Of a stretch of DNA of 64,000 bases, positions 25,019 to 56,833 are shown piece after piece (position 1 is the first letter of the stretch; every line of letters begins with the position of its first letter). A model generated the notes under the pieces. The model saw nothing but the letters and a program-made list of their open reading frames with translations, made no database searches and had not been told where the DNA came from. The position numbers were made by a program, and so were the translations under genes. This stretch comes from an uncultured bacterium (GTDB lineage: Bacteria > Verrucomicrobiota > Lentisphaeria > Victivallales > UBA1829). Location of the stretch: NCBI GenBank assembly GCA_902762495.1, contig CACWOL010000005.1, positions 28,213 through 92,212 of the forward strand. Direction: 5' to 3'.

Positions 25019-25065
25019 CCGTGTCCGAGCGGAGCCGGACACTACTGCAGTGGAAGCATTGCCTC

Positions 25066-27183
25066 CTATTTCTTGAGGGCGTTGTCAAGGGCCTTGTTCA
25101 CGTCCTCGGGTTTCGGGCAGAAATGCACGTTGCTGGGGAAGCTGATGCGTTTGAGCTTGGCGAGGTCGTAGATCGGGGGCGTGATCCCCTTCGGCAGCGG
25201 CAGCTTGTTGACGCTCTGGTAGAAGAGGATGCAGGCGTCCTTCCACCAGACGGCTTCGCGCGCCTGGAGTTTCAGGCGGCCGAGCACGAGGTCGTAGCGT
25301 TCGGGATCGACGTACATCCTGACGGATTCCCAGATGCCGGGATAGGTCGCGGCGACCTTCGCGCCGTTTTCGAACTCTCCGCAGAGGTGTTCCCAGAAGG
25401 TGTCGCCGGTGGGCATCTTCTGTTTCCAGCCGAGTCGGTGGAACCAGAGCCAGTAGCGTTCGGGGCAGGTCTTCAGGTCGTTGTACTGGTCGCAGAGCGG
25501 GGCGTTGTACTGCATCACGGTGCCGGTGCCCTTCTTCGTGCGGTCGGCGCCGAGCTCGGTTTCCGTGGCGTCGAAGACCTTGCGGCCGGGGACGTTCTCG
25601 TTGGTGGAGAGGAGCGAGGCGTACTTGAGGAACGACTCGTTGCCGGTCTGGTAGAGCCACGGGCCGGGTCCGTAGTGGTTGCCGAGCGTGGAGGCGAAGA
25701 TGTGGGCGAGACCGAGCGGCATCATGTACTGGCGGATGGCGGGGACGCTGCTCATCATCATGTCGCAGACGGGGTCGACGAACTTGGGATTCGCCGTAAA
25801 GGTCTGCGCGAGCCACTCCTTCGCGATGTCCTCGGCCTTCAGATCCGGGTTCCACGCGAGGCGTCCGAACGCGTACCAGTTCGCCTGAGCGAACGGATGG
25901 CGGGTCCAGTTCACGTCGTCGCCGATGTTCGCCACGCCGGCGATCATGCCGGACTCGTGGATCTTCTTCGCGACGGTGCTGCCGGGTCCGTACTGGTAGG
26001 TGTCGCTGTCGAGGACTTCCTTCCACAGCGTGGCGAGGTAGGCGAGGTGGTTGGACTGGCCGAGGTATTCCTGCGTGATCTGGAACTCCATGGCGAGCGG
26101 GATCTTCGTGATCTTGCCGAAGAGCGGGTGGAAGGGTTCGCAGGGCTGGAAGTCGAGTGGGCCGTTCTTCGCCTGCACGATCACGTTGTCGCGGAACTTG
26201 CCTTCGAGCGGCTGGAATTCAAGCAGGGCCTGCTGGACGCGTTCCTGCGGCTTCTGGCCGTACACGAAGGCGCGCCAGATGACCACGCCCCCGTAGGGAT
26301 TGAGGGCGTCGGCGAGCACGTTCGCGCCGTCGGCGTGGGTGCGTCCGTAGTCGCACGGGCCGGGCTGGCCTTCGCTGTTCGCCTTGACGAGGAATCCGCC
26401 GAAATCGGGAATCAGGTCGTAGATCTCCTTCGCCTTGGCTTTCCACCAGGCGGCGACTTCGGGCTTCAGCGGGTCGGCGTCCTTCAGCTTGCCGATGACC
26501 ATGGGCGAGGCGAAGTTCGCGGAGAGGAAGACGCGGATGCCGTACGGACGCAGCACGTCGGCGATGGCTTTCACCTTCGCCAGATTCTCCGGCTCAAGCA
26601 TCTTCGGCGACGCGTTCACGTTGTTCAGCACGGTCGCATTGATGCCGATCGAGGCGTTGGCGCGGGCGTATTCGGCGTAGCGCGGCGAAATGGTCCCGGG
26701 GAGCTCGTCCCATTTCCAGATGGAGTTTCCGGCATAGCCTCGCTCAATGGTGCCGTCGAGGTTGTCCCAGTGGTTCAGCATGCGGTATTTGTAGTACGGG
26801 ACCTCCTTCGCGTGGAAATTATCCGTGACCACGGTCCCGCAGGCCTGTTCCCGCAGCAGATGGTACGCGCCGTACAGAAGGCCGCGGTCGGTCTGCGCGA
26901 TGATCTTGACCGTGTCGTCCATGATGCGGATTTCGAATCCCTCGTCGCCGAGGTCGGAGCGGTGCTTGTCGGTCATGACCGCCCACTTGCGCTGTTTGAA
27001 GCGGGTGAGTTCGGAGAGCGCGATGTGCATGGTGTCGCTGACGGGCTTGTCGGCCTCTAGGGTGACTTTGGAAGGGATGGGCGTCTGAAGCCAGAGCTTG
27101 CTGCCGTCGTCCGCGGCGGCGGTCAGAGCGGTCGTGACTCCGAGGAGCAGTCCGAGGGCGGCGTTTCGTGCGGTATTTGCCAT
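25066..27183 (-). CDS. alpha-glucuronidase, glycoside hydrolase family 67, secreted
   Basis: 705 aa with a signal peptide. GH67-like blocks MLNHWDNLDGTIERGYAGNSIW and KANSEGQPGPCDYGRTHADGANVLADAL. Confidence 0.85.
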   Translation of the reverse strand: MANTARNAALGLLLGVTTALTAAADDGSKLWLQTPIPSKVTLEADKPVSDTMHIALSELTRFKQRKWAVMTDKHRSDLGDEGFEIRIMDDTVKIIAQTDRGLLYGAYHLLREQACGTVVTDNFHAKEVPYYKYRMLNHWDNLDGTIERGYAGNSIWKWDELPGTISPRYAEYARANASIGINATVLNNVNASPKMLEPENLAKVKAIADVLRPYGIRVFLSANFASPMVIGKLKDADPLKPEVAAWWKAKAKEIYDLIPDFGGFLVKANSEGQPGPCDYGRTHADGANVLADALNPYGGVVIWRAFVYGQKPQERVQQALLEFQPLEGKFRDNVIVQAKNGPLDFQPCEPFHPLFGKITKIPLAMEFQITQEYLGQSNHLAYLATLWKEVLDSDTYQYGPGSTVAKKIHESGMIAGVANIGDDVNWTRHPFAQANWYAFGRLAWNPDLKAEDIAKEWLAQTFTANPKFVDPVCDMMMSSVPAIRQYMMPLGLAHIFASTLGNHYGPGPWLYQTGNESFLKYASLLSTNENVPGRKVFDATETELGADRTKKGTGTVMQYNAPLCDQYNDLKTCPERYWLWFHRLGWKQKMPTGDTFWEHLCGEFENGAKVAATYPGIWESVRMYVDPERYDLVLGRLKLQAREAVWWKDACILFYQSVNKLPLPKGITPPIYDLAKLKRISFPSNVHFCPKPEDVNKALDNALKK

Positions 27184-29207: not shown

Positions 29208-32200
29208 TTACTTCGTGGCGAACTCGATCCGGTAGTAGTCCGAACCGTCCTGAAAATCGTTGAGCTCCAGTTGCGCGTGATGTTCATCGGCGGGCAGCAG
29301 CGTGACCGTACCGCGCGCCTGCTTCCGCATGATCCGGGTCAGGATCGCGGCGGCATCCAGCATCAGCGGCTTCGTCAGGTCCGGCCACGGTTTTCCGTCG
29401 ATCTTCACGCCGGCCGGGTATTCGCCTTCCCTGTGGGAATACGCGATCATGCTGCCCATGAACAGGAACACGCCGCGGCCGTCGAACGTTCCCTCCAGGA
29501 CCAGGACGCCCGGTTCAACGGGCATTGTCGTCTGCGAGGCGGTCTGTCCTGCGGCGGGCGTTGTCGTTGCACCGGGCAGAACGGCGGGTTTGCCTCTGTC
29601 GGCTTTCTTATTCGTGCGCTCCGGGTCGAAGATGTTCCGCGCCACGATGGCCGCGACTTTGTTTTCCGCGGTCACGCTGCCCGGATGCGGCGGGGAAGAG
29701 GTCGCTACTCTGACAAGACCTACGGAGAAAGAACGGACCTCATTGGAAAGAATCCTCTGCGTCAAACTGCCGATCTTCCAGTAGGGGAAAATCAGGTAGC
29801 GGTCGGGGGCGGGACTGGTGTTCGAAGCCTGAATCGTGAGGGTGCAGTTCATGTCGGTGAACCGGAGCTGTGTCACGAGCGCATCGTCGGGAATCGAGAG
29901 AGACAGATCGTAGAGTTTGGCGAGGAAGTCCGGATCGCCGGTGGAACTCCCAGGTTTCTGTTTTATCTCCGCCGGGGCGGTGGCGCCGACTGCCGGAACG
30001 GACTTGTTTTTGGCGGGCGTGTACTTGATGACGCGAATCTGCGCGGTCATGCGGACCTGCCTGGCCGTGGTCGCCGGGGCCGCACCGGCCTGCTGTCCGG
30101 CCAGGGCGCGGGCGGGCTCGATGCGGATTTCGAGGCGGCTCCAGGCCAGACGCGGCGTTACTTTTTCGATTTCGTCGATGAAGCGGACGATCCTGCTGTA
30201 TTCGTCGACGAGAGTAAAATCGATTTCGGCGGTGGAACGCTCGGCGTCGATCGAAATGGTCCTGACGGCGCCGAGCGACCGGAGATCGGCCTCCGCACGC
30301 TTCGCCGCATCGCCGACGAGTTCGCGGAGCCGGATTTCGGGCACTCCGTAGCGCTCGGTATTCCAGAGGGGCGCTCCCGTGAGCTTGCCGCTGTCGGTCT
30401 CGAACATCGTGAAGACGTCCTGATCGTTCCGGTCGCCGTCGATGTTCGTCGCAGCGGATTCGCCTGTCCGGGGCTTCGACGTCTGTGCCGCCGTCGCGGG
30501 CTTTGCTGCGACGGGAATCTCTTTCACGGTATTTCCGACGGGGTCCTTCGGCAGCTCCAGGGGCTCCTTCACCCCGTCCGGCTGGAACAGGATGATCCGG
30601 TAACGTGCGGCCGCCCCATCCTGATCGTAGATCGTGACCGTGACGCTGTCGCCCGTGCGGCTCAATCTTTTCTGTCCGCGACCCTCGCAGACGAAGCGCG
30701 TTTCGGCGGGGGCCGGGGTGAATCCCAGCTCGAACGGTTTGGAAAGGTCGGTCCACGGCTTCCCGTTGACGGTCAATTCGGCGGGTTCCTTGTAGGACTT
30801 GTGCTGGAGAAAGACCTTGTTGTCGCGGAAGACAAACGCGTCCTCACCATCGATAAAGCCCTCCAGGATCACGGAGATCTGCCCGTCGACTTTTGCCGCG
30901 GCGGATTCGCTCTGCTGTGTCGCGGTGCCCGGTTTCGCGGTGGCGGTCACCTGCCGCGGAATGGTCTGCTCGGCGGGCTTGGCGCCGGGCACGGTGGTCC
31001 GGGCGGGGCCTTCCACGGGCGGGCCGAAACCGCCGTTGGAACGCTGCTGGAACGGCGGCATGCCGAAGCCCGGGAACGGCATGCCTTCGAACGACGGCGT
31101 GACAGGTCCGTCCGCCTCCGTGGCTTCCACGCCGGGCTCATTGATGCGGCCCGCGAAGAGGATGAGCCCGGTCTGGTTGTCGCGGATCAGGACGAGGTAC
31201 GGACGGTCGGCGCGGAAGATGTTGAACGGGGGCGGCTGGGCCGCGCCGCCCATGCCGCCCATGATGATCGCGGTGGCGGCCGCCGCCTGCGTCTTTTCCT
31301 CGTCCATCTTCAGTGCGGTCTTGTGGATCACCTTTTCGATCCAGATGTATTTCAGCCGTTCGGAACGCTGCGCTATCCCGAAGAAATCCGCCTTCTTATC
31401 GTCAAACGGCGTCTCCATGCCGAGTTCCCCGAGGGCGTCCTTGAGGCTGTATTTGCAGGTCAGGTCGACGATCGGAAGCCAGAGGCGCGTTTCGTATGGC
31501 GAGCGGTTTTCGAGCCAGTCGTCGAGCTTTTCCCCGATCTTCGAAATGATGTTGTTCATCGCGGCTTCCCCGCGGTCCGCGCCGGGCTGGATCGGCATCA
31601 GTGCGACGAGATCGAACCGGGTGTCCTCGTACGGCAGGACCACAGCGTGGACGTTGTCCTCCTCGCTGGAGTAGTACGCGATGTCGTGGCCGCGTCGGTA
31701 CATCATTTTGACGCGTTTTTCCTTGCCGTCGAAATTGCGGAAGATCATGGGCTTGGTATCGTCTTTCTTGAACGGCGTCTTCCATTTCGCCTCGAAAAAC
31801 AGCGTGTTCAGCAGGATCATGAAGGATTTGTCCGAAATATCGGAGGGCGACAGCAGGTCCCTGATCATGTTCTTCGTGTGATCCTCGACATAGGCGTTGA
31901 CCTTCGAGACGAGCGGCCCCGGCTGCGAGAAGTCCTCTTTGAAAAACGTTCCGCCGTAGTATTGTCCGATCATCTTGATGAACGACGGAAGGATCAGATC
32001 ATCATATTTCTGTTCGTACCAGACGGAGTTCGACACCAGGACCTCGATCAGCTTGTTCGCCTCGTACTCCTGCGAAACCTCGTGGAAGAATTTGCCGCAT
32101 TCCGCCGGATCGGCGGGCAGCCCCAGCGTGTCGCGGATCTCCTGCGCGGTCTTTCCGCTCGCGCCGCAGTAGACCAGCCCGAACGCGCTGTCGATGCTGT

Positions 32201-32435
32201 ACGGGGAGATGAACGCGTTTTCCTTCGTGTCCTTCCCGCTGACCAGCTTAAAGAGGTCGAACCCCTTGCGGTTCATCTCCGCGGCGATGGCCTTCCGGTC
32301 CGCCGCTTCGTCATCTGCGTGCGTTGTCAGGGGCAGGGCGGACAACAGGGCCGTCGCGGCGCATGCGGCGGCGGCAAGTCCTCTTGCTTTGTGGGAAATG
32401 AACGCGGGACCGTCAAAAAACGATGTCTTTTTCAT
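29208..32435 (-). CDS. secreted serpin fused to a ~640-aa C-terminal extension of unknown function
   Basis: 1075 aa with signal peptide ..LTTHA/DDE. Serpin core spans about residues 50-432 (31140-32290): SPYSIDSAFGLVYCGASGKTAQEI, hinge EEKTQAAAATAIIM, C-terminal PPPFNIFRADRPYLVLIRDNQTGLILFAGRINEP. Residues 433-1075 are non-serpin. Confidence 0.8.
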   Translation of the reverse strand: MKKTSFFDGPAFISHKARGLAAAACAATALLSALPLTTHADDEAADRKAIAAEMNRKGFDLFKLVSGKDTKENAFISPYSIDSAFGLVYCGASGKTAQEIRDTLGLPADPAECGKFFHEVSQEYEANKLIEVLVSNSVWYEQKYDDLILPSFIKMIGQYYGGTFFKEDFSQPGPLVSKVNAYVEDHTKNMIRDLLSPSDISDKSFMILLNTLFFEAKWKTPFKKDDTKPMIFRNFDGKEKRVKMMYRRGHDIAYYSSEEDNVHAVVLPYEDTRFDLVALMPIQPGADRGEAAMNNIISKIGEKLDDWLENRSPYETRLWLPIVDLTCKYSLKDALGELGMETPFDDKKADFFGIAQRSERLKYIWIEKVIHKTALKMDEEKTQAAAATAIIMGGMGGAAQPPPFNIFRADRPYLVLIRDNQTGLILFAGRINEPGVEATEADGPVTPSFEGMPFPGFGMPPFQQRSNGGFGPPVEGPARTTVPGAKPAEQTIPRQVTATAKPGTATQQSESAAAKVDGQISVILEGFIDGEDAFVFRDNKVFLQHKSYKEPAELTVNGKPWTDLSKPFELGFTPAPAETRFVCEGRGQKRLSRTGDSVTVTIYDQDGAAARYRIILFQPDGVKEPLELPKDPVGNTVKEIPVAAKPATAAQTSKPRTGESAATNIDGDRNDQDVFTMFETDSGKLTGAPLWNTERYGVPEIRLRELVGDAAKRAEADLRSLGAVRTISIDAERSTAEIDFTLVDEYSRIVRFIDEIEKVTPRLAWSRLEIRIEPARALAGQQAGAAPATTARQVRMTAQIRVIKYTPAKNKSVPAVGATAPAEIKQKPGSSTGDPDFLAKLYDLSLSIPDDALVTQLRFTDMNCTLTIQASNTSPAPDRYLIFPYWKIGSLTQRILSNEVRSFSVGLVRVATSSPPHPGSVTAENKVAAIVARNIFDPERTNKKADRGKPAVLPGATTTPAAGQTASQTTMPVEPGVLVLEGTFDGRGVFLFMGSMIAYSHREGEYPAGVKIDGKPWPDLTKPLMLDAAAILTRIMRKQARGTVTLLPADEHHAQLELNDFQDGSDYYRIEFATK

Positions 32436-32572
32436 GGCTGGCTCCTTGTTGGGACAGGTGAAAACGTTTCAAGAAGTTATTTCTATGCTATTAGACGTTT
32501 CAAATAACGGAAATCTTAGCGTTGTTTTCAAAAAAACATCAAAAAAAGTCGAAAAAAAGTTTTCGGAGCACG

Positions 32573-33948: not shown

Positions 33949-33979
33949 GTTGAACTCCGTGTGATTCCGGCTTGAGGTG

Positions 33980-34927
33980 TTACGGTTCGGATTCCGCCGC
34001 GGCTCCGGCATCCGGCGGGAAGATCGCGTTCGCGTAGGTCTCCGGGTCGAAGACCTGCAGGTCGTCCGGCTGTTCGCCGAGGCCGACGAAGAGGATGGGC
34101 AGGCCGAATTCGCGCTGCGCGGCGCAGGCGGCTCCGCCTTTTCCGGTGCCGTCCATTTTGGTCAGGACCATGGCGGACGCGCCGGAGACGGATGCGAACT
34201 CGCGTGCCTGAGCGATGGAATTGCTGCCGTGGCTGGCGTCGATGGTGAGGATGGTCTCGTGCGGCGCGCCGGGCAGGACCTTGTTGATGATGCGCGTGAC
34301 TTTCGCCAGCTCGTCCATCAGGTTCTTGCGGTTCTGCTGGCGTCCGGCGGTGTCGATGAGCAGGTAGTCCACGCCCTTCGCGACTGCGGACTTCACGGCG
34401 TCGAACGCCACGGATGCGGGGTCCGCGCCCTGTTTCGCCGCGACGATCTGGCTGCCGGTGCGTTCGGCCCACAGCGCGAGCTGTTCGACGGCTGCCGCGC
34501 GGAAGGTGTCGCACGCGCCGAGCATGACGCGGTTGCCGTCCTGCGTGAGTGCGGCGGCGAGCTTGCCGATGGTGGTGGTCTTGCCGCTGCCGTTCACGCC
34601 GACGAAGAGGAGCACGGTCACGCCGTCCGGGTTCTTGCGCATGGGGCGCGCGCCCTCGGAAAGGATCTTTTGGAGTTCGGCGGCGGCCACGCGGGAGATG
34701 TCGTCGGACGATTTCAGTTCGCCGAGCTTGTAGCGTTCGCGAATGTTCTGCACGATGGTGCGCGAGGCGGACATGCCGAGGTCGGTGCCGATCAGGGTCT
34801 TTTCCAGTTCGGCGAAATCCTCCTCGGTCCACTCTTTGTTTCCGGTGAAGAGCCCGGATATCTTGCGGTTGACGGCGACGGCGGTCTTCTGGAGGCCGTT
34901 TTTGAATTTGGAGAAGAGGGAGAACAT
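33980..34927 (-). CDS. ftsY: signal recognition particle receptor
   Basis: 315 aa. NG domain with GVNGSGKTTTIGKLA, DTAGR, TKMDGTGKGG, GLPILFVGLGE. Confidence 0.9.
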   Translation of the reverse strand: MFSLFSKFKNGLQKTAVAVNRKISGLFTGNKEWTEEDFAELEKTLIGTDLGMSASRTIVQNIRERYKLGELKSSDDISRVAAAELQKILSEGARPMRKNPDGVTVLLFVGVNGSGKTTTIGKLAAALTQDGNRVMLGACDTFRAAAVEQLALWAERTGSQIVAAKQGADPASVAFDAVKSAVAKGVDYLLIDTAGRQQNRKNLMDELAKVTRIINKVLPGAPHETILTIDASHGSNSIAQAREFASVSGASAMVLTKMDGTGKGGAACAAQREFGLPILFVGLGEQPDDLQVFDPETYANAIFPPDAGAAAESEP

Positions 34928-34933
34928 GTTCCG

Positions 34934-35497
34934 TTATTCCGTTTTGCCGCCCGCGGGATTCTTTTCGATCTCGTTCTTGATGCCGTTCAGGATGCCGTTG
35001 ATGAAGAGGCCGGATTTCTCGTCGCTGAAATCCTTCGCGATCTCGATCGCCTCATCGATGCTCACCACGTGCGGGATGTCCGGGCAGTACAGCATCTCGG
35101 CCACCGCCACTTTCATGATGTTGCGGTCCACGGCGGACATGCGGTCCACGTCCCATTTCTCGGAGAACTTGCCGAGGTAATCGGTGATGACGTCGTCGTT
35201 GGCCTGCGCGTTTGCGATCAGGTTTTCGGCGTAGGCTCTGGCGCGGCGGAAGACGCGTGCGTCGGCGAACTCGCCGGACTCCTCGGCCTGCGCCCAGAAA
35301 TCCTCCATCGTGTTCGGTTCGGTCACGCTGTCCCGGATGTCGCATTCGAAAAGGTACTGCATCGCGAGCTCGCGGCCGAGGCGCTTGAAGTGCTGGTGCG
35401 GCTGGAAATGCGGCTGATGCGATTTTCTGCCGTTCGCGGCGTGTTTTTCCGGGGCGGCGTCTCCGGCTTCGTGTTCAAAATCGGATTCTGTGTTCAT
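34934..35497 (-). CDS. nusB: transcription antitermination factor NusB with ~45-aa N-terminal extension
   Basis: 187 aa. Motifs GRELAMQYLFECD and AVDRNIMKVAVAEMLY. Classic position after ribH. Confidence 0.85.
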   Translation of the reverse strand: MNTESDFEHEAGDAAPEKHAANGRKSHQPHFQPHQHFKRLGRELAMQYLFECDIRDSVTEPNTMEDFWAQAEESGEFADARVFRRARAYAENLIANAQANDDVITDYLGKFSEKWDVDRMSAVDRNIMKVAVAEMLYCPDIPHVVSIDEAIEIAKDFSDEKSGLFINGILNGIKNEIEKNPAGGKTE

Positions 35498-35549
35498 AGC
35501 AATTCGGGAAAATAGGCTGGATTCTGGAGAAAAGGGGAGGGGCGGCGGC

Positions 35550-37756: not shown

Positions 37757-37979
37757 AGAGCTAAATTTAAGAGGGACAGAGCATTAAAAATATAAATTAT
37801 TTCTTTTCCGGCACAATAAAACGCCGCATCGGAGCGTTATTTGATTTAGAAACGGCATTATGTCCGTAATAATCCCGGCGAAATCTCCTCCTTCCCGGTA
37901 GAGGACTGTTCCTTTGCCACACCCCCGAGAAACGGAGTCACGCCCCCTCAACGCCCCAAACTATGAAGGAGAACGGGAA

Positions 37980-39161
37980 ATGAGAACCATTTTGATCTTT
38001 GCCAATCTGATCCTTGCGGCATTCGTCGCGTTCCACGGATACGAATGGCTGAGCGAGCCGAAGGCGGAAGCCGAAGTGGCGACATCGGTCAAGAAAGAGC
38101 GCCGCGCATCGGAGCCGCAGCCCCGGCCCATCTCGGTGCAGCAGACGTTTCCGCAATTCGGATTCGGATTCAATGCCGCGCCTGTGCCCATGTCGACGGA
38201 CAATCAGGTCGCGACGACCGTGGCACTGAACATCTTCGACCCCGAACGCGCGCCGAAGGCGGTGAACACGAACCGCAGGACGGCGGCGATGCCGGTCAAC
38301 CGCGGCGACATGACGCTCGTCGGTACGTTCACCATCGGCAGAGTCGCCGGAGCGATCATCCTTCAGCGCGGCATGCAGATGATGAACATGTGGCAGCAAC
38401 CCGGACGCAACAATAATAACAACCGGAACAACAACACGCCCAACGCCGAGGAGCTTGCGGCGGCGCAGGAACAGCAGATGCAGGAGGCGCTGGCGAACCG
38501 TGCTGAACTGACCTCTCTGCTTCAAGCCCTTCAGATGAGCCCCGATGTCACGCCTCAGCAGACCGAACTGCTCCGTCAGCGCCTGAACCGTTCCAACGAG
38601 CAGATCGCACTCCTTCAGAATCAGAACCAGCAGCGTGCCATGGGGCGTGACGGACTGTCCGCGGACGGCGTTACGGCCACGGCCAACGCGTCCAATTCCA
38701 ACAAGCAGTATTTCCGCATCGGCGAAACGCTCCCGAACGGATACACGCTCGCGGCCGTGACTTCATCGAGCGCCACGCTCACGCGCGGACAGGAACAGCC
38801 GATTGAACTCACCATGCAGAAAACGAACGGAAATGCGGGCATGGGCGGTTTCGGCGGCGGCATGGGCGGATTCGGTATGGGCGGCTTCGGCGGCATGGGC
38901 GGTTTCGGAGACATGGGCATGGGTGGCTTCGGGGGCATGGATTTCGGCGGCGGTATGGGCGGCTTCGGCGGCGGCATGGATTTCGGCGGCGGCATGGGCG
39001 GCTTTGGCGGCGGCATGGACTTCGGTGGAGGCATGGGCGGCTTCGGTGGCGGTGCCGGCTTCGGCGGCGGCGCCGGTGGTTTTGGCGGTGGCTTCGGCGG
39101 CGGCGCCGGTGGTTTTGGCGGTGGCTTCGGCGGCGGCATGGGCGGTTTCGGAGGATTCTGA
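37980..39161 (+). CDS. membrane-anchored protein: GspC/PilP-like beta segment split by a Q/N-rich coil, ending in a G/M/F/D/A-only tail
   Basis: 393 aa from ATG 37980 with GGAG upstream. TM ILIFANLILAAFVAFHGY; motif VATTVALNIFDPER; N/Q-rich residues ~134-245. Residues 284-393 contain only G, M, F, D and A. Confidence 0.7.
   Translation: MRTILIFANLILAAFVAFHGYEWLSEPKAEAEVATSVKKERRASEPQPRPISVQQTFPQFGFGFNAAPVPMSTDNQVATTVALNIFDPERAPKAVNTNRRTAAMPVNRGDMTLVGTFTIGRVAGAIILQRGMQMMNMWQQPGRNNNNNRNNNTPNAEELAAAQEQQMQEALANRAELTSLLQALQMSPDVTPQQTELLRQRLNRSNEQIALLQNQNQQRAMGRDGLSADGVTATANASNSNKQYFRIGETLPNGYTLAAVTSSSATLTRGQEQPIELTMQKTNGNAGMGGFGGGMGGFGMGGFGGMGGFGDMGMGGFGGMDFGGGMGGFGGGMDFGGGMGGFGGGMDFGGGMGGFGGGAGFGGGAGGFGGGFGGGAGGFGGGFGGGMGGFGGF
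38829..39158 (+). repeat. coding low-complexity repeat array (GGMDFGGGMGGFG x3, GGAGGFGGGFG x2 and variants)
   Basis: 39-nt and 33-nt units recur with synonymous variation (ggc/ggt/gga). Antisense P/K-rich and A/E-rich ORFs over this stretch are shadows. Confidence 0.85.
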
Positions 39162-50469: not shown

Positions 50470-52545
50470 TCAGTGCAGACTGGACGGGCCTCCGTTCGAG
50501 AAATTGGTGCCCTGCCAGCCGCCTCCGCCCCCGTTTCCGCCGCTGCGGCCGGAGCAGTAGTATTCGCGGTTGGTGTAGAGCGGATGGCGGTCGCCGTGCT
50601 CGTCCTTCGTCCAGACCGCCGTCGCGTCCAGCCAGTCGAGCCCGGCCTGACGGAATTCCGGATTGCTGAGCACGGCGAGCGCGCTCACATATTTCGAGAA
50701 ATAGCCGAGATGGCCCGGATAACGCTCCATGGCGCGGCTCCAGGCCTCTTCGATGGAAGGGCTGCCGGAGAGGAGCGGGACGAATTCGGTGAGGTAGTAC
50801 AGCCAGTCGATGTCCGACATGGACATGCCCTCGACCGGCTCCAGCGCGATCGGGACGAGCGCGGTTTCGGTGAAGACGGGCAGGATCATGCGGCCGGCCT
50901 CGAACGGGCGGAAATACTGTCCGTCCTCCGTCTTGATCCTGCCGATCGGCTTTGCCTCGGCGTTCGTTTCGATCCTGTTGACGGAGTTCATGTTGTTCAG
51001 CCGGTAAAGCGCGTTGGAAACGCGTTGCGCCTCGCCGTTGGTCTGCGCCGAGGAGAAGACCTGTCCGACGTCGGGCGCGCGGTAGCCGCGCCGCGGGCGC
51101 CCCATGGATCCGGAGACGGTCACGGTGTCCTGTTCCACCTCGAAATAGGCGAGCGCGCCGGACCGGTAGTCCATGCCCGGCTTGAAGTGTCCGCGCAGAT
51201 ATTGCTCCCATTCCTGTTTGTCGTCGCCGTAGGAGCCCCATTCCTCGTCGAAGACGGCCCAGGAAAGGTGCGGCAGGAGGTCGTAGCGGCGGTCTGCGTC
51301 CTCGTCGTTGTAGGTCTCCTCGAAGAGCGCGGGGTTGACGGAGATCGTGATGTTGGTGTACGTGTGGTAAGTGTGCGTGTTGCCGGCGTGTTCCTCGCTG
51401 GTCTCCACGTCGTCGCTCACGGAATACTCGTAGGGGATTTCGCGGTTGAAGATGTCGTCGAAGAGTTTCCGGCCGCCTTTTGCGTAGCGGTCGAGCGCGC
51501 CGGCATTGTCCGCGTCGCCGTAGGTCCCGGCCGAATCGGAGAAGTCGATGTGCAGGGGGAGTATCTCGGACTGTCCGGGGAAATCGTCCTCGAACTCGCA
51601 TTCGAAATCGCCCCACCAGTTGCCGTTGAAGTCCAGGCGCAGGAGACGGTCGAGTCCGCACCAGTCGCGGGCGTGGATCATGTCATAGATATGCTTTTCT
51701 CCGAGGTAGTTCGCAAGATCGCCCGGGGGATTGGTCGTGAGGTGGGGCATGCCCACGAATTTGAACTTTGTCCCGACGGCGATGCCGTATGCGCGGTTTT
51801 CGGTTTCCCCGGTGAAATCGTTGCGCTGCGCGGAATAATCGAGGATGGAATCGAGCATGGAGATGTACGGCATGCGCCAGGCGTAGTCCTTCACGAAGAC
51901 GGGAGCGAGGCGTTCGTAGACGCCTCCGTTTCCGACGAGGTTCAGGTATTTGATGTAGAAATCGCTGGAATCCGGATCGTAGGAGATGCCGTTGTTCTTC
52001 GCGGCCTGCTGCGCCGCGCCGAATCCGATCAGCGGGCCGGCGAACGAGATGCGGGTCTGGAGCTGGGAGACGAGGTCGTCGAGGGCGTCGAGATAGCGCT
52101 TTTCCTTCTCCACGCGCAGGACCTCCTCCATGAGCTTCTCCACGTTCAGGGAGCCGTCCCCGTTGTAGAACTCTGCCTTTTCCGGGAACTTCGTGTATTC
52201 CTCCGGGGTGAGCGGCTGGGGAAGGTCGGCGAAGAATTCCGCCGCGTTCGAGTTCGGGTTGTCCAGGATGCCCTTCGCAAAGAACGGGTCGGAAATCAGC
52301 GTGCCGGTCGCGCGCACCAGGTTCAGCTCGCCGATCAGGTTCAGGGAATGCTTCTGCCATTCGGCGGCAGTGAGCGCTGCGGCGTCCACGCCGTTCTGCG
52401 CCTTCACTTTGCCCCGGATTACGGTCTGGACGTCGAACAGCAGCAGGACGGCGATGATGACGAGGATGAGCGCGACGACCGCCAGGATGAGCACCTGGCC
52501 GTGCTCGCCCCGTCTGCGCCTCAATGCCGTCAGGTCCCGTTTCAT
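50470..52545 (-). CDS. TadG-like (Tad_N) pilus-assembly/pseudopilin-like large protein
   Basis: 691 aa. N-terminus RRRRGEHGQVLILAVVALILVIIAVLLLFDVQ..NGVDAAALTAAEW. C-terminal G-rich end GRSGGNGGGGGWQG. Confidence 0.65.
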   Translation of the reverse strand: MKRDLTALRRRRGEHGQVLILAVVALILVIIAVLLLFDVQTVIRGKVKAQNGVDAAALTAAEWQKHSLNLIGELNLVRATGTLISDPFFAKGILDNPNSNAAEFFADLPQPLTPEEYTKFPEKAEFYNGDGSLNVEKLMEEVLRVEKEKRYLDALDDLVSQLQTRISFAGPLIGFGAAQQAAKNNGISYDPDSSDFYIKYLNLVGNGGVYERLAPVFVKDYAWRMPYISMLDSILDYSAQRNDFTGETENRAYGIAVGTKFKFVGMPHLTTNPPGDLANYLGEKHIYDMIHARDWCGLDRLLRLDFNGNWWGDFECEFEDDFPGQSEILPLHIDFSDSAGTYGDADNAGALDRYAKGGRKLFDDIFNREIPYEYSVSDDVETSEEHAGNTHTYHTYTNITISVNPALFEETYNDEDADRRYDLLPHLSWAVFDEEWGSYGDDKQEWEQYLRGHFKPGMDYRSGALAYFEVEQDTVTVSGSMGRPRRGYRAPDVGQVFSSAQTNGEAQRVSNALYRLNNMNSVNRIETNAEAKPIGRIKTEDGQYFRPFEAGRMILPVFTETALVPIALEPVEGMSMSDIDWLYYLTEFVPLLSGSPSIEEAWSRAMERYPGHLGYFSKYVSALAVLSNPEFRQAGLDWLDATAVWTKDEHGDRHPLYTNREYYCSGRSGGNGGGGGWQGTNFSNGGPSSLH

Positions 52546-52551
52546 GCGCCG

Positions 52552-53277
52552 TCACTCCAGAAATGCCGAGGAATGGTTCGTGAGCTCAGCCTCACCTGAG
52601 ATGTCGATGGAATCGCGTCCGGTGAGCCAGTCGTGCAGAGGGATGTTCAGCGGGTAATGAACGAACTCGAAATCGAAACGCGTGGTCTTGCCGAGACTCT
52701 GTACCGACGCGTCCACATAGTGCCTTTTGCTTTTGCCGCAGATGGAACAGCTGCCGAGCAGCCGCTCGCCGTAGTGGGGGCAGTGGTAATTCGTGTGGAT
52801 GCGGTCCTCGCCGACCCAGTTGGCGTATTCCACGTTGCGGTCTCCTTCCATAAAGCCGCGCAAAAGCGATTTCTCCGATTCCACCCCGGTCCAGCCTGCA
52901 TAGCCTCTGTGATTCGGCGTCACCATGGGGCCGGAAACGGGCGCGGCTTTGATCAGAGCCTCCTTGATAGTGAATTCGTCGCGGAATCCGACGGCGGCGG
53001 AACGCGCCCCGCGGAAGGCCGCGTAGTCGGTGACCATGTCGGCGAGCACGAGCTGGAAAAGCTGAAGGATGCCGAAGAGGATCAGACCGAGCAGGATCAT
53101 GGAGAGGAACGATTCGAGGATCGCGGATCCGTGCTCGCCCTTTCTGCGCGCGTATCCGCCTGCCCGGATGCAATGCCCCGCATGCTCCGCCGCGGGCTTC
53201 GCCGCTTCGGAGCCGGTCTCAAGGCTGCGGACTTCCTTATCTTCGCGGCTCAGGAAATGTCGGGGCAGGAAATGCAC
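52552..53277 (-). CDS. TadE-like pseudopilin (start uncertain; track start is GTG)
   Basis: 241 aa. ARRKGEHGSAILESFLSMILLGLILFGILQLF resembles the TadE/TadF N-terminus. The true start may be downstream of 53277. Confidence 0.55.
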   Translation of the reverse strand: MHFLPRHFLSREDKEVRSLETGSEAAKPAAEHAGHCIRAGGYARRKGEHGSAILESFLSMILLGLILFGILQLFQLVLADMVTDYAAFRGARSAAVGFRDEFTIKEALIKAAPVSGPMVTPNHRGYAGWTGVESEKSLLRGFMEGDRNVEYANWVGEDRIHTNYHCPHYGERLLGSCSICGKSKRHYVDASVQSLGKTTRFDFEFVHYPLNIPLHDWLTGRDSIDISGEAELTNHSSAFLE

Positions 53278-53304
53278 AGGTACGCCCTTTTCATAAACGA
53301 TTCA

Positions 53305-53969: not shown

Positions 53970-55055
53970 TTATTTGTCTTTCTTCTTCGAGCTGTTCTTC
54001 TTGTTGTTCTTCGCGGCGGATTTCGCGACTTCGTCGAGGAATTCCTCGGAGAGGTTCAGCGTGAAGACGGCGTCGTTGCCTTTCGGTTCGTGCTTGAGCG
54101 TGGAGAGCGGGTTGGATTTTCCGCCCTTCTGGATGAGCTTGCCGTCCTTGCCGATCTCGAAAGACGCGCTGGTGAGCATGGTGTAGAGGGTCACGAAACC
54201 GTCGACGGTGTGGAAGACCTCGTCGCGGATCGCGGAAGTGGTGCAGCGGAGCGTGATGGCGGCGTCGATGGAGCCGCGCGAGCCTTCCGTGATGCGCGCG
54301 AAAATCGCCTTGACGTTGTTGCGGATGTCCTCGATGCTGGGGTCCTCCTCGTCGATCTCGATGGAGCCGTCCCCGGCCTTGATCTTCGTCTTCTTCTCCT
54401 CGGCGGTGCGCGGATGGGCTTCCTCCTCGGCCTTCACTTTGCCCTGGACGTAGGCGGCGTCGACCATGGCGGAGACGAGCGCGCCCTTGGTCTTCATGCC
54501 GGTGACCAGCATGGACGGTTCTGGGTTCACTGTCCAGACGAAGGGCTGGGTGTCCGGGAGGTTGATCGCCAGGCGGCACTGCATGATGTCATCGGAGATG
54601 AACTCGAAGATGGCGAGCGAATCGGTCTCGCCGTTGATGGTGTGGATCTTCAGGATGCGCACGCCGGAAACGGTGGACGCTTCGGTTTTGATGTCTTCGC
54701 GGCCGGCGAGGCGCTTGTAGATTTCGTTGACGCGTCCGGGAGCGTAGAGGACGACGTCCATGAGGGAATGCTGGAAGTCGCCGGGATCGATCTCGGTGAG
54801 GAAGAAGGCGACGTCTCCGGTGAGGTCCTCCTTGACCATGGCCACCTCGTTGAGGCTGTTTTCGAGGTCGACGCCGTCCTTGAAGAGGAGCGTCTGGAGC
54901 GCGGGCGAGCTGACCGCCTTGCTCGCGTTGACGTAGAGCGCGAACTTGGCGTTCGAGGGGATGTAGGTCTCGGAGACCGCGAAGAGGGACGGCGCGAATA
55001 CCGCAAGGGCGAGGAGGAATGCGGCGGATTTGATGCTGGACAGTAATCTTCTCAT
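53970..55055 (-). CDS. secreted hypothetical protein with K-rich C-terminus
   Basis: 361 aa with signal peptide AAFLLALAVFAPSLFA. Ends AKNNKKNSSKKKDK. No family recognised. Confidence 0.55.
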   Translation of the reverse strand: MRRLLSSIKSAAFLLALAVFAPSLFAVSETYIPSNAKFALYVNASKAVSSPALQTLLFKDGVDLENSLNEVAMVKEDLTGDVAFFLTEIDPGDFQHSLMDVVLYAPGRVNEIYKRLAGREDIKTEASTVSGVRILKIHTINGETDSLAIFEFISDDIMQCRLAINLPDTQPFVWTVNPEPSMLVTGMKTKGALVSAMVDAAYVQGKVKAEEEAHPRTAEEKKTKIKAGDGSIEIDEEDPSIEDIRNNVKAIFARITEGSRGSIDAAITLRCTTSAIRDEVFHTVDGFVTLYTMLTSASFEIGKDGKLIQKGGKSNPLSTLKHEPKGNDAVFTLNLSEEFLDEVAKSAAKNNKKNSSKKKDK

Positions 55056-55083
55056 GGCTGGCGTCCTTTCTGCCGTGTGGCCG

Positions 55084-55707
55084 TTATTGTTGGGAGAAGT
55101 GCATGAAGTTGCGGATGGCGTTCGCCTCGAGGTTCAGCGCGGCGGGTTCGTCGAAGGGGCCGTCGATGACCACGGAGTCCACGTCGGAGTAGAGGAACCG
55201 GGGCTTGAACGTACGGTAGCAGACGCTGTCGATGAGGAACGCGAGCGACGGAGCCGAGGTGGACGAGGCAGTGCTGTTGAGGTTCCCGAGGCTGAGCTTG
55301 CGCCAGATTTTGCCGCCGTCCTGGGTCAGGTGGAGGCGGAGCTTGTAGAATCCGGGCAGGTCGTTGATCGCGATGGCCTCGATGGAGATGATGTCGGAGG
55401 AGTCGAGCAGAGGGGTCTTGTCGATGATGATCTCGTCGCCGAACATGGTCTCGACCTCGATTTCCTTGTCGGTGCCGCGTTTGTGGCGGATGATCTCATG
55501 GATGGAGACCACGCCGTATTCGCCGGGCTCCCCGACGACCGGCTTGTAGACGTCTTCCTTGTTGTCGACGTTGAGCGGGTCCAGGATGCTGGAGGCGCTG
55601 CCGCCGCACGAGGCAAGCAGACAGAACGATGCCGCTGCGAGGGCGAGCGCCGCGAGGCGGGCAGATGCGCGGAGGCCGGATCGTGTGATGTGCTTCGGAG
55701 TCGTCAT
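55084..55707 (-). CDS. lipoprotein paralogue 1 with SecDF P1-head-like motif
   Basis: 207 aa. Lipobox LLASCG. Contains LAFLIDSVCYRTFKPRFLYSDVDSVVIDGPFDEPAALNLEAN. Confidence 0.6.
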   Translation of the reverse strand: MTTPKHITRSGLRASARLAALALAAASFCLLASCGGSASSILDPLNVDNKEDVYKPVVGEPGEYGVVSIHEIIRHKRGTDKEIEVETMFGDEIIIDKTPLLDSSDIISIEAIAINDLPGFYKLRLHLTQDGGKIWRKLSLGNLNSTASSTSAPSLAFLIDSVCYRTFKPRFLYSDVDSVVIDGPFDEPAALNLEANAIRNFMHFSQQ

Positions 55708-55713
55708 AGGCCG

Positions 55714-56277
55714 TTATTTGAGCCGGAAGAAGTTCCGGGCGGAGTTGGATTCAAGTTTCTTCGCGGTGGCAGGGTCGAACGGGCCGTCCACGATGATGTA
55801 GTCGGTCACGTCGTCGTAAAGCAGACGCGGGACGAACGTGCGGTAGACGATGCCGTCGATGATGAAGGCGACGTGCGTGGCTTTGTTCGGGAGGCTGAGC
55901 CCGATCCAGTGGCGTCTGCCGCGGTCGGTCAGTTTCAGTTCGAGGCTGTAGTAGGGCGGCTGCTTTTCGAGCGGAATCGCCTTGATGGACTTGATGTCGG
56001 CGGAGTCCAGCAGGATGGCCTTGTTCAGGCAGATGTCGTCGCCGAACATCGTGGGCGCCATGACCTCCTTGTCGGTCCCGCGGCGCAGCGAGATGATCTC
56101 CTGGATCTCGATGATGCCTTCCAGAGGACGGTCGGACGTGTCGAGGTTTTCCGGATCGAACATGTGGTCGATCTGCTCGGCGCTGCAGCTCTGCGCTCCC
56201 GCGCCGCAGCAGAAGACTGCGGTGAAGAGGAGCATGACGACAGGCAGCGCCCGGCGGAAATATTTCATGAATTCCAT
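55714..56277 (-). CDS. lipoprotein paralogue 2 with SecDF P1-head-like motif
   Basis: 187 aa (alternative ATG at 56268). Lipobox AVFCCG. Contains VAFIIDGIVYRTFVPRLLYDDVTDYIIVDGPFDPATAKKLESN. Confidence 0.6.
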   Translation of the reverse strand: MEFMKYFRRALPVVMLLFTAVFCCGAGAQSCSAEQIDHMFDPENLDTSDRPLEGIIEIQEIISLRRGTDKEVMAPTMFGDDICLNKAILLDSADIKSIKAIPLEKQPPYYSLELKLTDRGRRHWIGLSLPNKATHVAFIIDGIVYRTFVPRLLYDDVTDYIIVDGPFDPATAKKLESNSARNFFRLK

Positions 56278-56284
56278 GGCCGGA

Positions 56285-56833
56285 TCATTTCCTCATTTTG
56301 AAGTAGTTGTATTTCGCGTTGTTCTGAAGCGCCAGCGCGGTCGCCTGGTCGAACGGACCGTCAACGATGACCGAGAGCGCGTCGTCGGCGATCTGGCGCG
56401 GGACGAATCCGCGGTACACGGTGCCGTCGATCACGAACGCCAGTTGGGTGCCTTTGTGCTGGACGCTGAGGTTGATCCACAGCTTGTGGCCGCGGTCGGT
56501 CAGGTCGAACCGGAGGTTGTAGAACCCCTGGTCTCCGGGGATCGGAATAGGCTGGATGTACTTGATCTCGGAGGAATCCAGCAGCTGGATGGAGTTGATC
56601 GTCACATCGCCGCCGAAGTACGACGCCACGGTGCGTTCGATGCTGTCGCCGTTCTTTTTGCGGATGACTTCGTGGATCGAGACCACGTTTTTCGGCGGCA
56701 GCTGCATTTCCTCCCAGTTGTCCGGGTCCATATACAGATCGACTTCTTCGCTGTCGCAGCTGTGGTAGCCGCAGCAGAAAATAACAGAGCAGAGCAGAGC
56801 CGCCGGAGCAAGAAGTTTGCGGAAGATTTTCAT
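56285..56833 (-). CDS. lipoprotein paralogue 3 with SecDF P1-head-like motif
   Basis: 182 aa. Lipobox VIFCCG. Contains LAFVIDGTVYRGFVPRQIADDALSVIVDGPFDQATALALQNN. Confidence 0.6.
   Translation of the reverse strand: MKIFRKLLAPAALLCSVIFCCGYHSCDSEEVDLYMDPDNWEEMQLPPKNVVSIHEVIRKKNGDSIERTVASYFGGDVTINSIQLLDSSEIKYIQPIPIPGDQGFYNLRFDLTDRGHKLWINLSVQHKGTQLAFVIDGTVYRGFVPRQIADDALSVIVDGPFDQATALALQNNAKYNYFKMRK

What the first reader, a model, noticed from the sequence alone, without database searches (positions are those of the whole stretch)
38206..38258. Shared VAxxVAxNIFDPER motif links the serpin fusion and the Gly-rich protein 6 kb away
The serpin fusion has NKVAAIVARNIFDPERTNK (coding DNA 29607-29660, minus strand). 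The Gly-rich protein has NQVATTVALNIFDPERAPK (38206-38258). In the core 17 residues (VAAIVARNIFDPERTNK versus VATTVALNIFDPERAPK) 12 are identical. In both proteins a short linker and a hydrophobic L-V/E-G-T-F beta strand follow. Both proteins also contain G/M/F-rich segments. They therefore appear to share a lineage-specific periplasmic module and may act in the same structure.
Basis: seen in the sequence. Interest (0 to 1): 0.55.

Follow-up and report, generated by a model that had tools for sequence, protein, structure and literature searches.

The report
Shared secretion-machine docking motif, serpin fusion
The short motif shared by the two proteins is real: it is a conserved segment of the GspC part of a type II secretion machine, and the serpin protein carries a soluble single-chain copy of that machine's periplasmic GspM, GspL-position and GspC pieces, so both proteins probably meet at the same secretion apparatus.

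Summary
NIFDPER occurs exactly twice in the six-frame translation of the window, once in each protein. The start coordinates need small corrections (38202-38258 and 29607-29663).

The Gly-rich protein is this rumen Lentisphaeria lineage's divergent GspC. It has a membrane anchor, the motif helix, and an HR beta domain split by a helical hairpin. A 110-residue G/F/M tail replaces the usual second periplasmic domain. In a relative its gene sits directly upstream of gspD-E-F-G.

The serpin fusion holds a roughly 300-residue insert, absent from a close ortholog. The insert has no membrane segments and consists of:
- the periplasmic domain of the operon's GspM-like protein (49% identity, E 3e-40);
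- the periplasmic domain of the protein in the GspL position (47% identity, E 1e-22);
- the GspC motif.

At family level the similarity extends well beyond the motif (hhalign probability 99.1%, E 1.7e-18; bridging protein P0111, E 9e-22).

My inference is that the motif is the GspC segment that docks on the GspL/GspM periplasmic pair. The cassette would then tether payloads such as the serpin to the secretion platform. The function itself is not shown. Soluble M-L-C (and G-M-L-C) fusions appear to be undescribed.

The parts
37980..39161 (+). Gene for the Gly-rich protein, a divergent GspC (393 aa from the ATG at 37980; the TTG at 37914 listed by the ORF finder is probably not the start).
   Evidence: All 31 aligned homologs start at MR.(I/V)L. 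GGAG lies 9-12 nt upstream of the ATG. 18 of 32 family members hit PF11356 T2SSC. Its homolog sits directly upstream of gspD in L007.
37980..38054 (+). N-terminal membrane anchor (aa 1-25).
   Evidence: It is the only hydrophobic segment in the protein. AF2 predicts a helix at 2-25.
38202..38258 (+). The motif NQVATTVALNIFDPERAPK (aa 75-93): a short helix followed by NIFDPER. Proposed GspL/GspM docking segment of GspC.
   Evidence: N84, F86 and R90 invariant. It aligns to PF11356 profile positions from about 44. AF2 predicts a helix at 73-82 with pLDDT about 50 when the protein is modelled alone.
38301..38372 (+). HR domain, first part (aa 108-131; strands MTLVGTFTIG / GAIILQ).
   Evidence: AF2 strands 111-119 and 122-130 with pLDDT 86-88. 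L113, G115, T116, A125 and I127 are invariant.
38445..38651 (+). Helical hairpin inserted in the HR domain (aa 156-224; conserved tip LQ.(S/T)PxVT.QQT).
   Evidence: AF2 helices 156-186 and 192-224. It is homologous to the C-terminal coiled coil of most fusion-family members.
38691..38819 (+). HR domain, second part (aa 238-280; YFRIGETLPNGYTLAAVT..ATLTR..IELT).
   Evidence: AF2 strands 240-279 with pLDDT 87-89. With the hairpin removed in silico, the two parts match PF11356 positions 44-132 of 141 in one stretch, at 27.8 bits against a cutoff of 27.
38829..39158 (+). G/F/M-rich low-complexity tail (aa 284-393) where other GspC proteins have a PDZ or helical 2P domain.
   Evidence: 110 aa: G 64%, F 16%, M 12%. 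The tail is conserved as a feature across homologs.
29208..32435 (-). Gene for the serpin fusion protein (1075 aa).
   Evidence: GC3 is 0.81.
32316..32435 (-). Sec-type signal peptide (aa 1-40; hydrophobic core 19-38, then THA|DDE).
   Evidence: It is the only hydrophobic segment in 1075 aa. The cleavage site was read by eye, not predicted with a tool.
31134..32273 (-). Serpin domain (aa 55-434).
   Evidence: PF00079, E 8.3e-84, covering the full profile.
30576..30893 (-). 'GKPW' beta domain, copy 1 (aa 515-620).
   Evidence: Internal repeat with aa 975-1075, E 3e-13. The domain forms arrays in P0110 and P0114. No Pfam match.
30018..30380 (-). Cassette domain 1: GspM-type periplasmic domain (aa 686-806), with no membrane anchor.
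   Evidence: 49% identity, E 3e-40, to the bitopic 277-aa protein of the L007 T2SS operon. Foldseek top hits are PilO (2rjz, 5uvr, 3jc8_Oa; probability 1.0). The standalone homolog P0127 passes PF10741 T2SSM_b and matches NCBIfam GspM at E 4e-12.
29706..29939 (-). Cassette domain 2: periplasmic C-terminal domain of the protein that occupies the GspL position (aa 833-910).
   Evidence: 47% identity, E 1e-22, to aa 315-401 of the bitopic 406-aa L007 protein. AF2 pLDDT is 77-90. No GspL or PilN profile match.
29607..29663 (-). The motif NKVAAIVARNIFDPERTNK (aa 925-943): a GspC-derived segment immediately after the M and L domains.
   Evidence: The columns are invariant in the family. AF2 predicts a helix and pLDDT 82-87 when the M and L domains are in the same chain.
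29211..29513 (-). 'GKPW' beta domain, copy 2 (aa 975-1075).
   Evidence: The same strand is present in ortholog P0085, which has no motif, so it belongs to the GKPW domain.

Best explanation
The motif is a conserved segment of GspC, the inner-membrane protein that links the type II secretion (T2SS) assembly platform to the secretin. It forms a short helix followed by N-I-F-D-P-E-R and lies between the membrane anchor and the flexible linker that precedes the HR domain.

The Gly-rich protein is this rumen Lentisphaeria lineage's GspC. Its architecture is: membrane anchor, motif, an HR beta domain split by a helical hairpin, and a G/F/M-rich tail.

The serpin protein is exported by a Sec signal. 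It carries a roughly 300-residue cassette without membrane segments, made of the periplasmic domain of GspM, the periplasmic domain of the protein in the GspL position, and the GspC motif. This is a single-chain copy of the periplasmic C-L-M contact.

I propose that in GspC the motif docks on the GspL/GspM periplasmic pair. In the fusion it would do the same in cis, giving a folded unit that can join the platform by the same domain-domain contacts that L and M use with each other. That would hold the serpin, and other payloads in paralogs, in the periplasm at the base of the secretion machine. There the serpin could act as a local guard against serine proteases, much as ecotin does.

Shown here: the motif, the homologies, the operon context, the absence of membrane segments, and the indel relative to an ortholog.
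Inferred: L/M docking by the motif, attachment of the cassette to the machine, and the role of the serpin.
For: - The motif is real and restricted to the two families.
- Family-level homology excluding the bridging protein: hhalign probability 99.1%, E 1.7e-18, 106 columns covering motif plus hairpin.
- Bridging protein P0111 (M + L + motif + complete split HR) aligns to the Gly-rich protein over 194 residues, E 9e-22.
- GspC identity: 18 of 32 members hit PF11356. The spliced HR scores 27.8 bits against a cutoff of 27, with the motif inside the matched stretch. The homolog's gene lies directly upstream of gspD-E-F-G, pseudopilin genes and a GspK-like gene.
- Cassette domains against the L007 operon proteins: E 3e-40 and E 1e-22.
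- GspM support: Foldseek hits to PilO, T2SSM_b and NCBIfam GspM via P0127, and a direct weak GspM hit.
- AF2 gives the motif pLDDT 82-87 when M and L are in the same chain, against about 50 in the Gly-rich protein modelled alone.
- Published models and crosslinking describe a GspC-L-M trimer. In those models GspC has a second alpha helix that is the L/M binding site, followed by a flexible linker and then HR (PMC11981180). This is the position of the motif.
- Paralogs add the GspG globular domain, 55% identical to the operon's GspG and lacking its hydrophobic helix, to the same cassette.
- One MAG holds at least two paralogs with different payloads.
Against: - The pLDDT contrast is indirect.
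- The second cassette domain matches no GspL or PilN profile and no solved structure by sequence. 'GspL' rests on topology and gene position only.
- No T2SS core gene lies in the window or next to any cassette gene seen.
- The close ortholog P0085 lacks the cassette but keeps the serpin, so the serpin does not depend on it.
- A motif bound in cis may leave nothing free to bind the real machine.
- The signal peptide and periplasmic location were read from the sequence and not tested.
Confidence: 0.62

Rival explanations
1. The cassette is a targeting or secretion tag. The fusion proteins would be cargo of the T2SS, brought to the machine by mimicking its own platform and then expelled. The serpin would therefore act outside the cell, for example against rumen or host proteases.
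For: The architecture is modular: variable N-terminal payloads (serpin, GKPW arrays, an unknown domain plus GspG-like) with a conserved, mostly C-terminal cassette. From general knowledge, other gut bacterial serpins act extracellularly, and T2SS substrates are thought to bind GspC or the CLM complex (PMC11981180).
Against: Only about 11 clusters at 50% identity among 1.84 billion representatives carry the full cassette, which is far too few for a general tag in glycan-degrading bacteria. No hydrolase payloads were seen. In the window protein the cassette is internal, not terminal. Ortholog P0085 has the serpin without the cassette.
Confidence: 0.17
2. The cassette proteins are soluble decoys or regulators. 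By copying the periplasmic faces of M, L, C (and G), they would compete with the membrane-anchored subunits, or with substrates, and so tune or block assembly of the platform.
For: They are 47-55% identical to the lineage's own subunits, lack membrane anchors, and are present as several paralogs. L/M periplasmic domains are known to exchange partners dynamically (PMC3815138, title and abstract).
Against: A decoy has no obvious need for payloads such as a serpin or GKPW arrays. The cis-bound motif suggests a self-satisfied unit rather than a competitor. There is no regulatory context around the genes.
Confidence: 0.1
3. The motif belongs functionally to the HR domain and contacts the secretin N0 domain rather than GspL/GspM. 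The fusion would then bind the secretin directly.
For: The motif lies inside the stretch matched by the PF11356 profile, which also covers HR. The HR-N0 contact is the established GspC interaction (PMC3169554, abstract).
Against: Most cassette proteins keep the motif but have lost the HR strands, and the motif always directly follows the M and L domains. About 17 poorly conserved, low-confidence residues separate the motif from HR. Published models place the L/M site on the helix before this linker.
Confidence: 0.08
4. The match is a chance similarity or a compositional artefact between two unrelated proteins.
For: Between the two window proteins only about 20 residues align convincingly. The rest of the BLAST alignment needs a 17-residue gap.
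Against: The same residues are invariant in both families. hhalign gives probability 99.1%. P0111 bridges the two families over 194 residues. There are no occurrences outside the two families in 199 kb.
Confidence: 0.01

Closest known systems
GspC (T2SS protein C; Pfam PF11356; XpsC, PulC, OutC, EpsC, XcpP)
   Same: It has a single N-terminal membrane anchor, a conserved helix before a flexible linker, and an HR beta domain. In a relative its gene lies directly upstream of gspD. The profile match covers both the motif and HR.
   Different: The HR domain is interrupted by a helical hairpin of about 100 residues. The second periplasmic domain (PDZ or single helix) is replaced by a 110-residue G/F/M-rich tail. 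In the window lineage the gene is separated from the T2SS operon, lying between waaA and ribBA. The unspliced sequence scores below Pfam's cutoff.
GspC-GspL-GspM trimeric assembly-platform complex (XpsCLM; PMC11981180)
   Same: The same three partners are involved. The L and M periplasmic ferredoxin-like domains pair with each other and both touch the periplasmic part of GspC near its second helix.
   Different: Here the three periplasmic elements are joined in one Sec-exported polypeptide without membrane segments, in the order M-L-C, and are fused to unrelated payloads.
PilO/PilN/PilP alignment subcomplex of type IVa pili
   Same: The first cassette domain has a PilO-like fold. From general knowledge, the unstructured N-terminal part of PilP binds the PilN/PilO heterodimer and its C-terminal HR-like domain binds the secretin. 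This is the same division of labour proposed here for the motif and HR.
   Different: The operon in the relative is of the T2SS type, with a GspK-like protein and a secretin N0 domain of the GspD type. Sequence similarity to PilO and PilP is marginal.
Periplasmic adaptor proteins of tripartite efflux pumps (AcrA, MexA, MacA)
   Same: A beta domain is interrupted by a long alpha-helical hairpin. These were weak Foldseek hits to the Gly-rich protein model (E 0.2-0.9).
   Different: The resemblance is in topology only. There is no significant sequence or fold score and no pump genes nearby.
Ecotin (periplasmic serine-protease inhibitor of E. coli) and secreted bacterial serpins
   Same: A protease inhibitor exported to the cell envelope. 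This comparison is from general knowledge and was not tested here.
   Different: A serpin joined to copies of secretion-machine domains turned up in none of my searches of the held library.

Membership tests
GspC / PF11356 T2SSC (Gly-rich protein) | Profile match at or above Pfam's curated cutoff (27 bits) | tested here: inconclusive
   The native sequence scores 19.4-22.7 bits (E 1e-3 to 1e-4), below the cutoff. With the hairpin insertion removed in silico it scores 27.8 bits, E 2.6e-6, over profile positions 44-132 of 141. 18 of 32 family members match at E <= 0.01.
GspC / PF11356 T2SSC (Gly-rich protein) | Bitopic topology: one N-terminal membrane helix with the rest periplasmic | tested here: met
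   One hydrophobic segment at aa 1-22. AF2 predicts a helix at 2-25.
GspC / PF11356 T2SSC (Gly-rich protein) | Gene within a T2SS cluster, next to gspD | tested here: met
   Met in relative L007, where the 64%-identical homolog lies immediately upstream of a secretin with an N0 domain, followed by GspE, F, G and a GspK-like gene. Not met in the window or its close relatives L005 and L006, where the gene lies between waaA and ribBA.
GspC / PF11356 T2SSC (Gly-rich protein) | [quoted passage not shown] | not testable with these tools
   This needs complex modelling or binding assays.
GspC / PF11356 T2SSC (Gly-rich protein) | Second periplasmic domain (PDZ or coiled coil) | tested here: not met
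   The C-terminus is a 110-residue G/F/M low-complexity tail. No PDZ match was found.
GspM / PilO family (cassette domain 1, aa 686-806) | Ferredoxin-like periplasmic fold of PilO/GspM | tested here: met
   The Foldseek top hits are PilO 2rjz (E 6e-4, probability 1.0), 3jc8_Oa and 5uvr (TM-score 0.71 on the target). The model has pLDDT 81-94 in this domain.
GspM / PilO family (cassette domain 1, aa 686-806) | Sequence match to GspM profiles | tested here: met
   The direct match is only weak (NCBIfam GspM, E 0.027). A transitive match exists through P0127, which is related to the cassette at E 1e-13, passes PF10741 T2SSM_b (23.7 bits against 21.7) and matches NCBIfam GspM_XpsM at E 4e-12 over positions 3-163 of 180, below the equivalog cutoff.
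GspM / PilO family (cassette domain 1, aa 686-806) | N-terminal membrane anchor | tested here: not met
   There is no hydrophobic segment in the fusion apart from the signal peptide. The operon homolog does have an anchor.
GspL (cassette domain 2, aa 833-910) | Homology to the periplasmic C-terminal domain of a bitopic protein with a large cytoplasmic N-domain, encoded with gspM in a T2SS cluster | tested here: met
   47% identity, E 1e-22, to aa 315-401 of the 406-aa L007 protein, which has a roughly 250-aa N-domain, a membrane helix, a coiled coil and a C-domain.
GspL (cassette domain 2, aa 833-910) | Match to GspL, GspL_C or PilN profiles, or to solved GspL structures | tested here: not met
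   No hit in Pfam, NCBIfam or the PDB profile search, including with a 14-sequence profile. I therefore call it 'the protein in the GspL position' and do not treat it as a proven GspL.
Serpin (aa 55-434) | Full-length match to PF00079 | tested here: met
   E 8.3e-84, profile positions 4-370 of 370.
Serpin (aa 55-434) | Inhibitory-type hinge of the reactive-centre loop (small residues at P14-P9) | tested here: inconclusive
   The sequence reads EEKTQAAAATAIIMGGMGGAAQPPP before FNIFRADRPY. It resembles the inhibitory consensus as I recall it, but no tool test was done.

The most novel reading that the evidence does not exclude
Rumen Lentisphaeria would encode a small family of Sec-exported 'plug-in' subunits. 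These are single-chain replicas of the periplasmic faces of their own T2SS platform (GspM + GspL-position domain + GspC docking helix, sometimes also the GspG globular domain and the GspC hairpin). They would insert into or onto the secretion machine and station payloads there, such as a serpin. That would be a previously unknown class of T2SS accessory proteins. It would also be a natural fusion that identifies which GspC segment holds the C-L-M trimer together.
Probability: 0.35. Interest if true: 0.8.

Novelty: new variant of a known kind. Interest (0 to 1): 0.62.

Why it matters
How GspC, GspL and GspM fit together in the periplasm is one of the least resolved parts of the type II secretion machine. 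The only available models are predictions supported by crosslinking (PMC11981180).

A natural fusion of the M and L periplasmic domains to one short GspC segment is independent evolutionary evidence for the C-L-M trimer. It also nominates specific residues for mutagenesis: the helix plus N-x-F-x-x-x-R.

If the cassette does attach payloads to the machine, it would be a new way of equipping a secretion system with accessory activities, here a protease inhibitor. It would also be a ready-made soluble construct for structural work.

The divergent GspC is of interest for how the secretin vestibule is organised outside Proteobacteria, because of its split HR domain and its tail resembling FG repeats.

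Tried and rejected
- PDB sequence and profile searches gave only coiled-coil or noise hits. I tried the Gly-rich family, the spliced HR alignment and the GspL-position family.
- Foldseek with the whole Gly-rich protein model was dominated by its helices. PilP hits were weak (E 0.6-1.2).
- The genomic contexts of P0111 and P0108 were uninformative (short contigs with sugar-hydrolase neighbours).
- No T2SS core gene was found in the window, either by Pfam on 30 genes or by BLAST with the L007 operon proteins.
- I rejected the idea that the 'LxGTF' strand after the motif is homologous in the two proteins. In the fusion it is the first strand of the GKPW domain and is present in ortholog P0085, which has no motif. 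The same strand pattern recurs in GKPW arrays.
- I rejected using G/M/F richness as evidence of homology, because it is low-complexity composition.
- A degenerate DNA-pattern scan of all genomes for NIFDPER was considered and dropped. By my estimate the pattern carries about 31-33 bits, which would give hundreds of chance hits in 596 Gb.
- Literature searches for Lentisphaerae T2SS, or for serpins linked to T2SS, found nothing relevant.
Full report
**1. The observation**

Both peptides exist and are in frame.
- NQVATTVALNIFDPERAPK is encoded at 38202-38258(+).
- NKVAAIVARNIFDPERTNK is encoded at 29607-29663(-).

NIFDPE occurs only twice in the six-frame translation of the window. BLASTP of the pair gives E 9e-6. 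By my scaling to all real gene pairs in the window, that is about 4e-3.

The carriers are ORF 29208-32435(-), 1075 aa, and ORF 37914-39161(+). The true start of the second ORF is almost certainly the ATG at 37980. A GGAG lies upstream of it, and every homolog starts MR.(I/V)L there.

**2. Origin of the window**

The window is 61.5% G+C. All homologs come from rumen and gut metagenomes and from MAGs labelled Lentisphaeria or Victivallales.

The genes around the two proteins are housekeeping genes: GH67 glucuronidase, DUF711, aroA, ftsY, nusB, ribH, ribBA, waaA and a Kdo kinase. No T2SS core gene lies in the window.

**3. The Gly-rich protein is a divergent GspC**

- It matches Pfam T2SSC (PF11356) weakly, exactly over the motif region. 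18 of 32 family members match at E <= 0.01.
- The AF2 model shows the following elements:
  - a membrane helix at 2-25;
  - a low-confidence helix at 73-82 (the motif);
  - two confident strands at 111-130;
  - a long helical hairpin at 156-224;
  - four more confident strands at 240-279.
- When I removed the hairpin in silico, the two strand blocks plus the motif matched PF11356 in a single stretch (profile positions 44-132 of 141), at 27.8 bits against a cutoff of 27. The HR domain is therefore split by an inserted hairpin, and the motif lies inside the region that the GspC profile covers.
- The last 110 residues are G 64%, F 16% and M 12%. They stand where other GspC proteins have a PDZ or helical domain.
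- The decisive context comes from contig L007. There the 64%-identical homolog lies immediately upstream of a secretin with a GspD-type N0 domain, followed by GspE, GspF, GspG, pseudopilin genes and a GspK-like protein.
- In the window lineage (L005 and L006 have the same synteny) the gene has moved away from that operon.

**4. What surrounds the motif in the serpin fusion**

The fusion has one hydrophobic segment, a Sec-type signal peptide. After it come:
- a full serpin domain (E 8e-84);
- a P/G/F-rich linker;
- a roughly 100-residue beta domain, which I call GKPW. It recurs at the C-terminus (E 3e-13) and forms arrays in other proteins.

Between the two GKPW copies lies a cassette of about 300 residues. 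Its parts match the L007 T2SS operon as follows:
- aa 656-810 are 49% identical (E 3e-40) to the periplasmic part of the bitopic 277-aa protein encoded just upstream of gspC;
- aa 823-909 are 47% identical (E 1e-22) to the C-terminal periplasmic domain of the bitopic 406-aa protein encoded before that one;
- the motif follows directly.

The first domain is of the GspM/PilO type. Foldseek puts PilO structures at the top. A standalone homolog passes T2SSM_b and matches NCBIfam GspM at E 4e-12.

The second domain could not be tied to GspL or PilN by any profile. Calling it GspL rests on the topology of its parent protein and on its gene position.

**5. Is the similarity more than a motif?**

Between the two window proteins, no. 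After about 20 residues the fusion continues into the GKPW domain. Its first strand, VLVLEGTF, only superficially resembles HR strand 1. The same strand is present in the motif-less ortholog P0085.

At family level, yes.
- Most relatives of the fusion continue after the motif with a coiled coil that is homologous to the GspC hairpin (P0092, E 6e-18).
- One relative, P0111, continues with a complete split HR domain (194 aligned residues, E 9e-22).
- Profile-profile comparison with P0111 excluded from both sides gives probability 99.1%, E 1.7e-18 over 106 columns. The HR strands appear as an insertion on the GspC side.
- The motif residues (I, N, F, D/P, R) are among the very few invariant columns in both families.

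**6. Distribution and evolution**

- A full scan of 1.84 billion representative proteins found about 11 clusters with the whole cassette. It also found about 55 clusters of 200-330-aa standalone bitopic M-type proteins and a few 400-430-aa proteins of the L-position type.
- In a rough neighbour-joining tree without support values, the cassette M domains form one clade. It is sister to the standalone M proteins of the same lineage.
- Payloads differ between family members: a serpin, GKPW domains, coiled coils, or an unknown domain plus the GspG globular domain. That GspG-like domain is 55% identical to the operon's GspG and lacks its hydrophobic helix.
- One MAG (RGIG6864) holds at least two paralogs.
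- Ortholog P0085 sits at the syntenic locus and is 86% identical over aa 1-658, but it lacks the cassette altogether. The cassette is therefore gained or lost as a unit.

**7. Mechanism**

*Established elsewhere.* GspC, L and M form a trimer. The L and M periplasmic domains pair with each other and both touch the periplasmic part of GspC. In the published models GspC consists of a membrane helix, a second helix that is the L/M binding site, a flexible linker and then HR (PMC11981180).

*Shown here.* The motif helix occupies exactly that position in the Lentisphaeria GspC. In a dozen protein clusters evolution has fused it directly behind the M and L periplasmic domains.

*Inferred.*
- The motif is the L/M-docking segment. 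This is consistent with its pLDDT of 82-87 when M and L are in the same chain, against about 50 when GspC is modelled alone.
- The cassette is a folded replica of the periplasmic C-L-M contact that can associate with the platform.
- The serpin is thereby stationed at the base of the machine, perhaps as an ecotin-like guard.

I put about 0.9 on the homology and the T2SS link, about 0.55 on L/M docking by the motif, and about 0.3 on the tethered-guard role.

The rivals are a cargo-targeting tag, a decoy or regulator, and secretin binding by the motif. Each is listed with its evidence in the rival explanations.

**8. Novelty**

The component families are known. The following turned up in none of my literature searches:
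- soluble single-chain M-L-C (and G-M-L-C) proteins;
- a serpin joined to such a cassette;
- a GspC with a hairpin-split HR domain and a G/F/M tail.

I rate the finding as a new variant of a known kind.

**9. Limits**

- No model coordinates were available, so no contacts could be checked.
- GspL membership is unproven.
- The organism's own T2SS operon is outside the window.
- All functional statements are inferences.

Noticed in passing
window 38829-39158 (+); L007 6686-7876: The 110-residue tail of the GspC-like protein is 64% G, 16% F and 12% M (GGFGGGMGGF repeats). In L007 the first gene of the T2SS operon encodes a signal-peptide protein with about 190 residues of the same composition plus a helical domain. 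P0038 fuses that helical domain to GspC. A composition resembling FG repeats inside a secretion machine is unexplained.
   Followed up: partly
window 30576-30893 (-) and 29211-29513 (-): A beta domain of about 100 residues with no Pfam match, which I call GKPW (pattern LxLxGxxDGxxxFxF ... NGKPWxDLxxPFxL). It occurs twice in the serpin fusion (E 3e-13) and forms arrays of several copies in P0110 (897 aa) and P0114. The AF2 confidence was only moderate.
   Followed up: partly
window about 29565-30461 (-) versus L005 10001-12373: Presence/absence polymorphism. Ortholog P0085 at the syntenic locus is 86% identical over aa 1-658 and 68% over the last 118 residues. It replaces the roughly 300-residue cassette with a short T/E/P-rich linker.
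   Followed up: yes
L002 5953-8556; L011 4405-7032: Paralogs carry the globular domain of the major pseudopilin GspG (52-55% identical to the L007 GspG aa 44-134, without the N-terminal hydrophobic helix) in front of the M-L-C cassette. The periplasmic parts of four T2SS components are therefore present in one soluble chain.
   Followed up: partly
window 38445-38651 (+): The helical hairpin inserted in the HR domain has a conserved tip (LQxxPGVTxxQT). The tip is shared with the C-terminal coiled coil of most cassette proteins. The topology recalls the hairpin of AcrA/MexA adaptors (weak Foldseek hits). Its partner is unknown.
   Followed up: partly
window 31230-31290 (-), serpin aa 383-402: The serpin reactive-centre loop is unusually Gly/Met-rich (AAAATAIIMGGMGGAAQPPP). 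P1 and the target protease are not obvious.
   Followed up: no
window 50470-53301 (-), 53970-56866 (-), 57040-59412 (+): TadG-like (691 aa) and TadE-like (249 aa) proteins are followed by four genes without any Pfam match (361, 209, 192 and 193 aa). A divergently oriented MoxR AAA ATPase and a DUF58 protein follow. This may be a separate envelope or pilus-related cluster.
   Followed up: no
L007 7954-9174 and its homologs P0183-P0302: The 406-aa protein in the GspL position is very strongly conserved across these Lentisphaeria (78-94% identity in 120 clusters). It is far more conserved than the GspC-like protein (47-88%), yet it matches no known family.
   Followed up: partly
window 29271-32507 (+), 25021-27060 (+), 33977-35515 (+) and others: Very long ORFs lie antisense to real genes (for example 1078 aa opposite the serpin gene). 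They are expected in DNA of 61% G+C and have low GC3, so they are not genes.
   Followed up: yes
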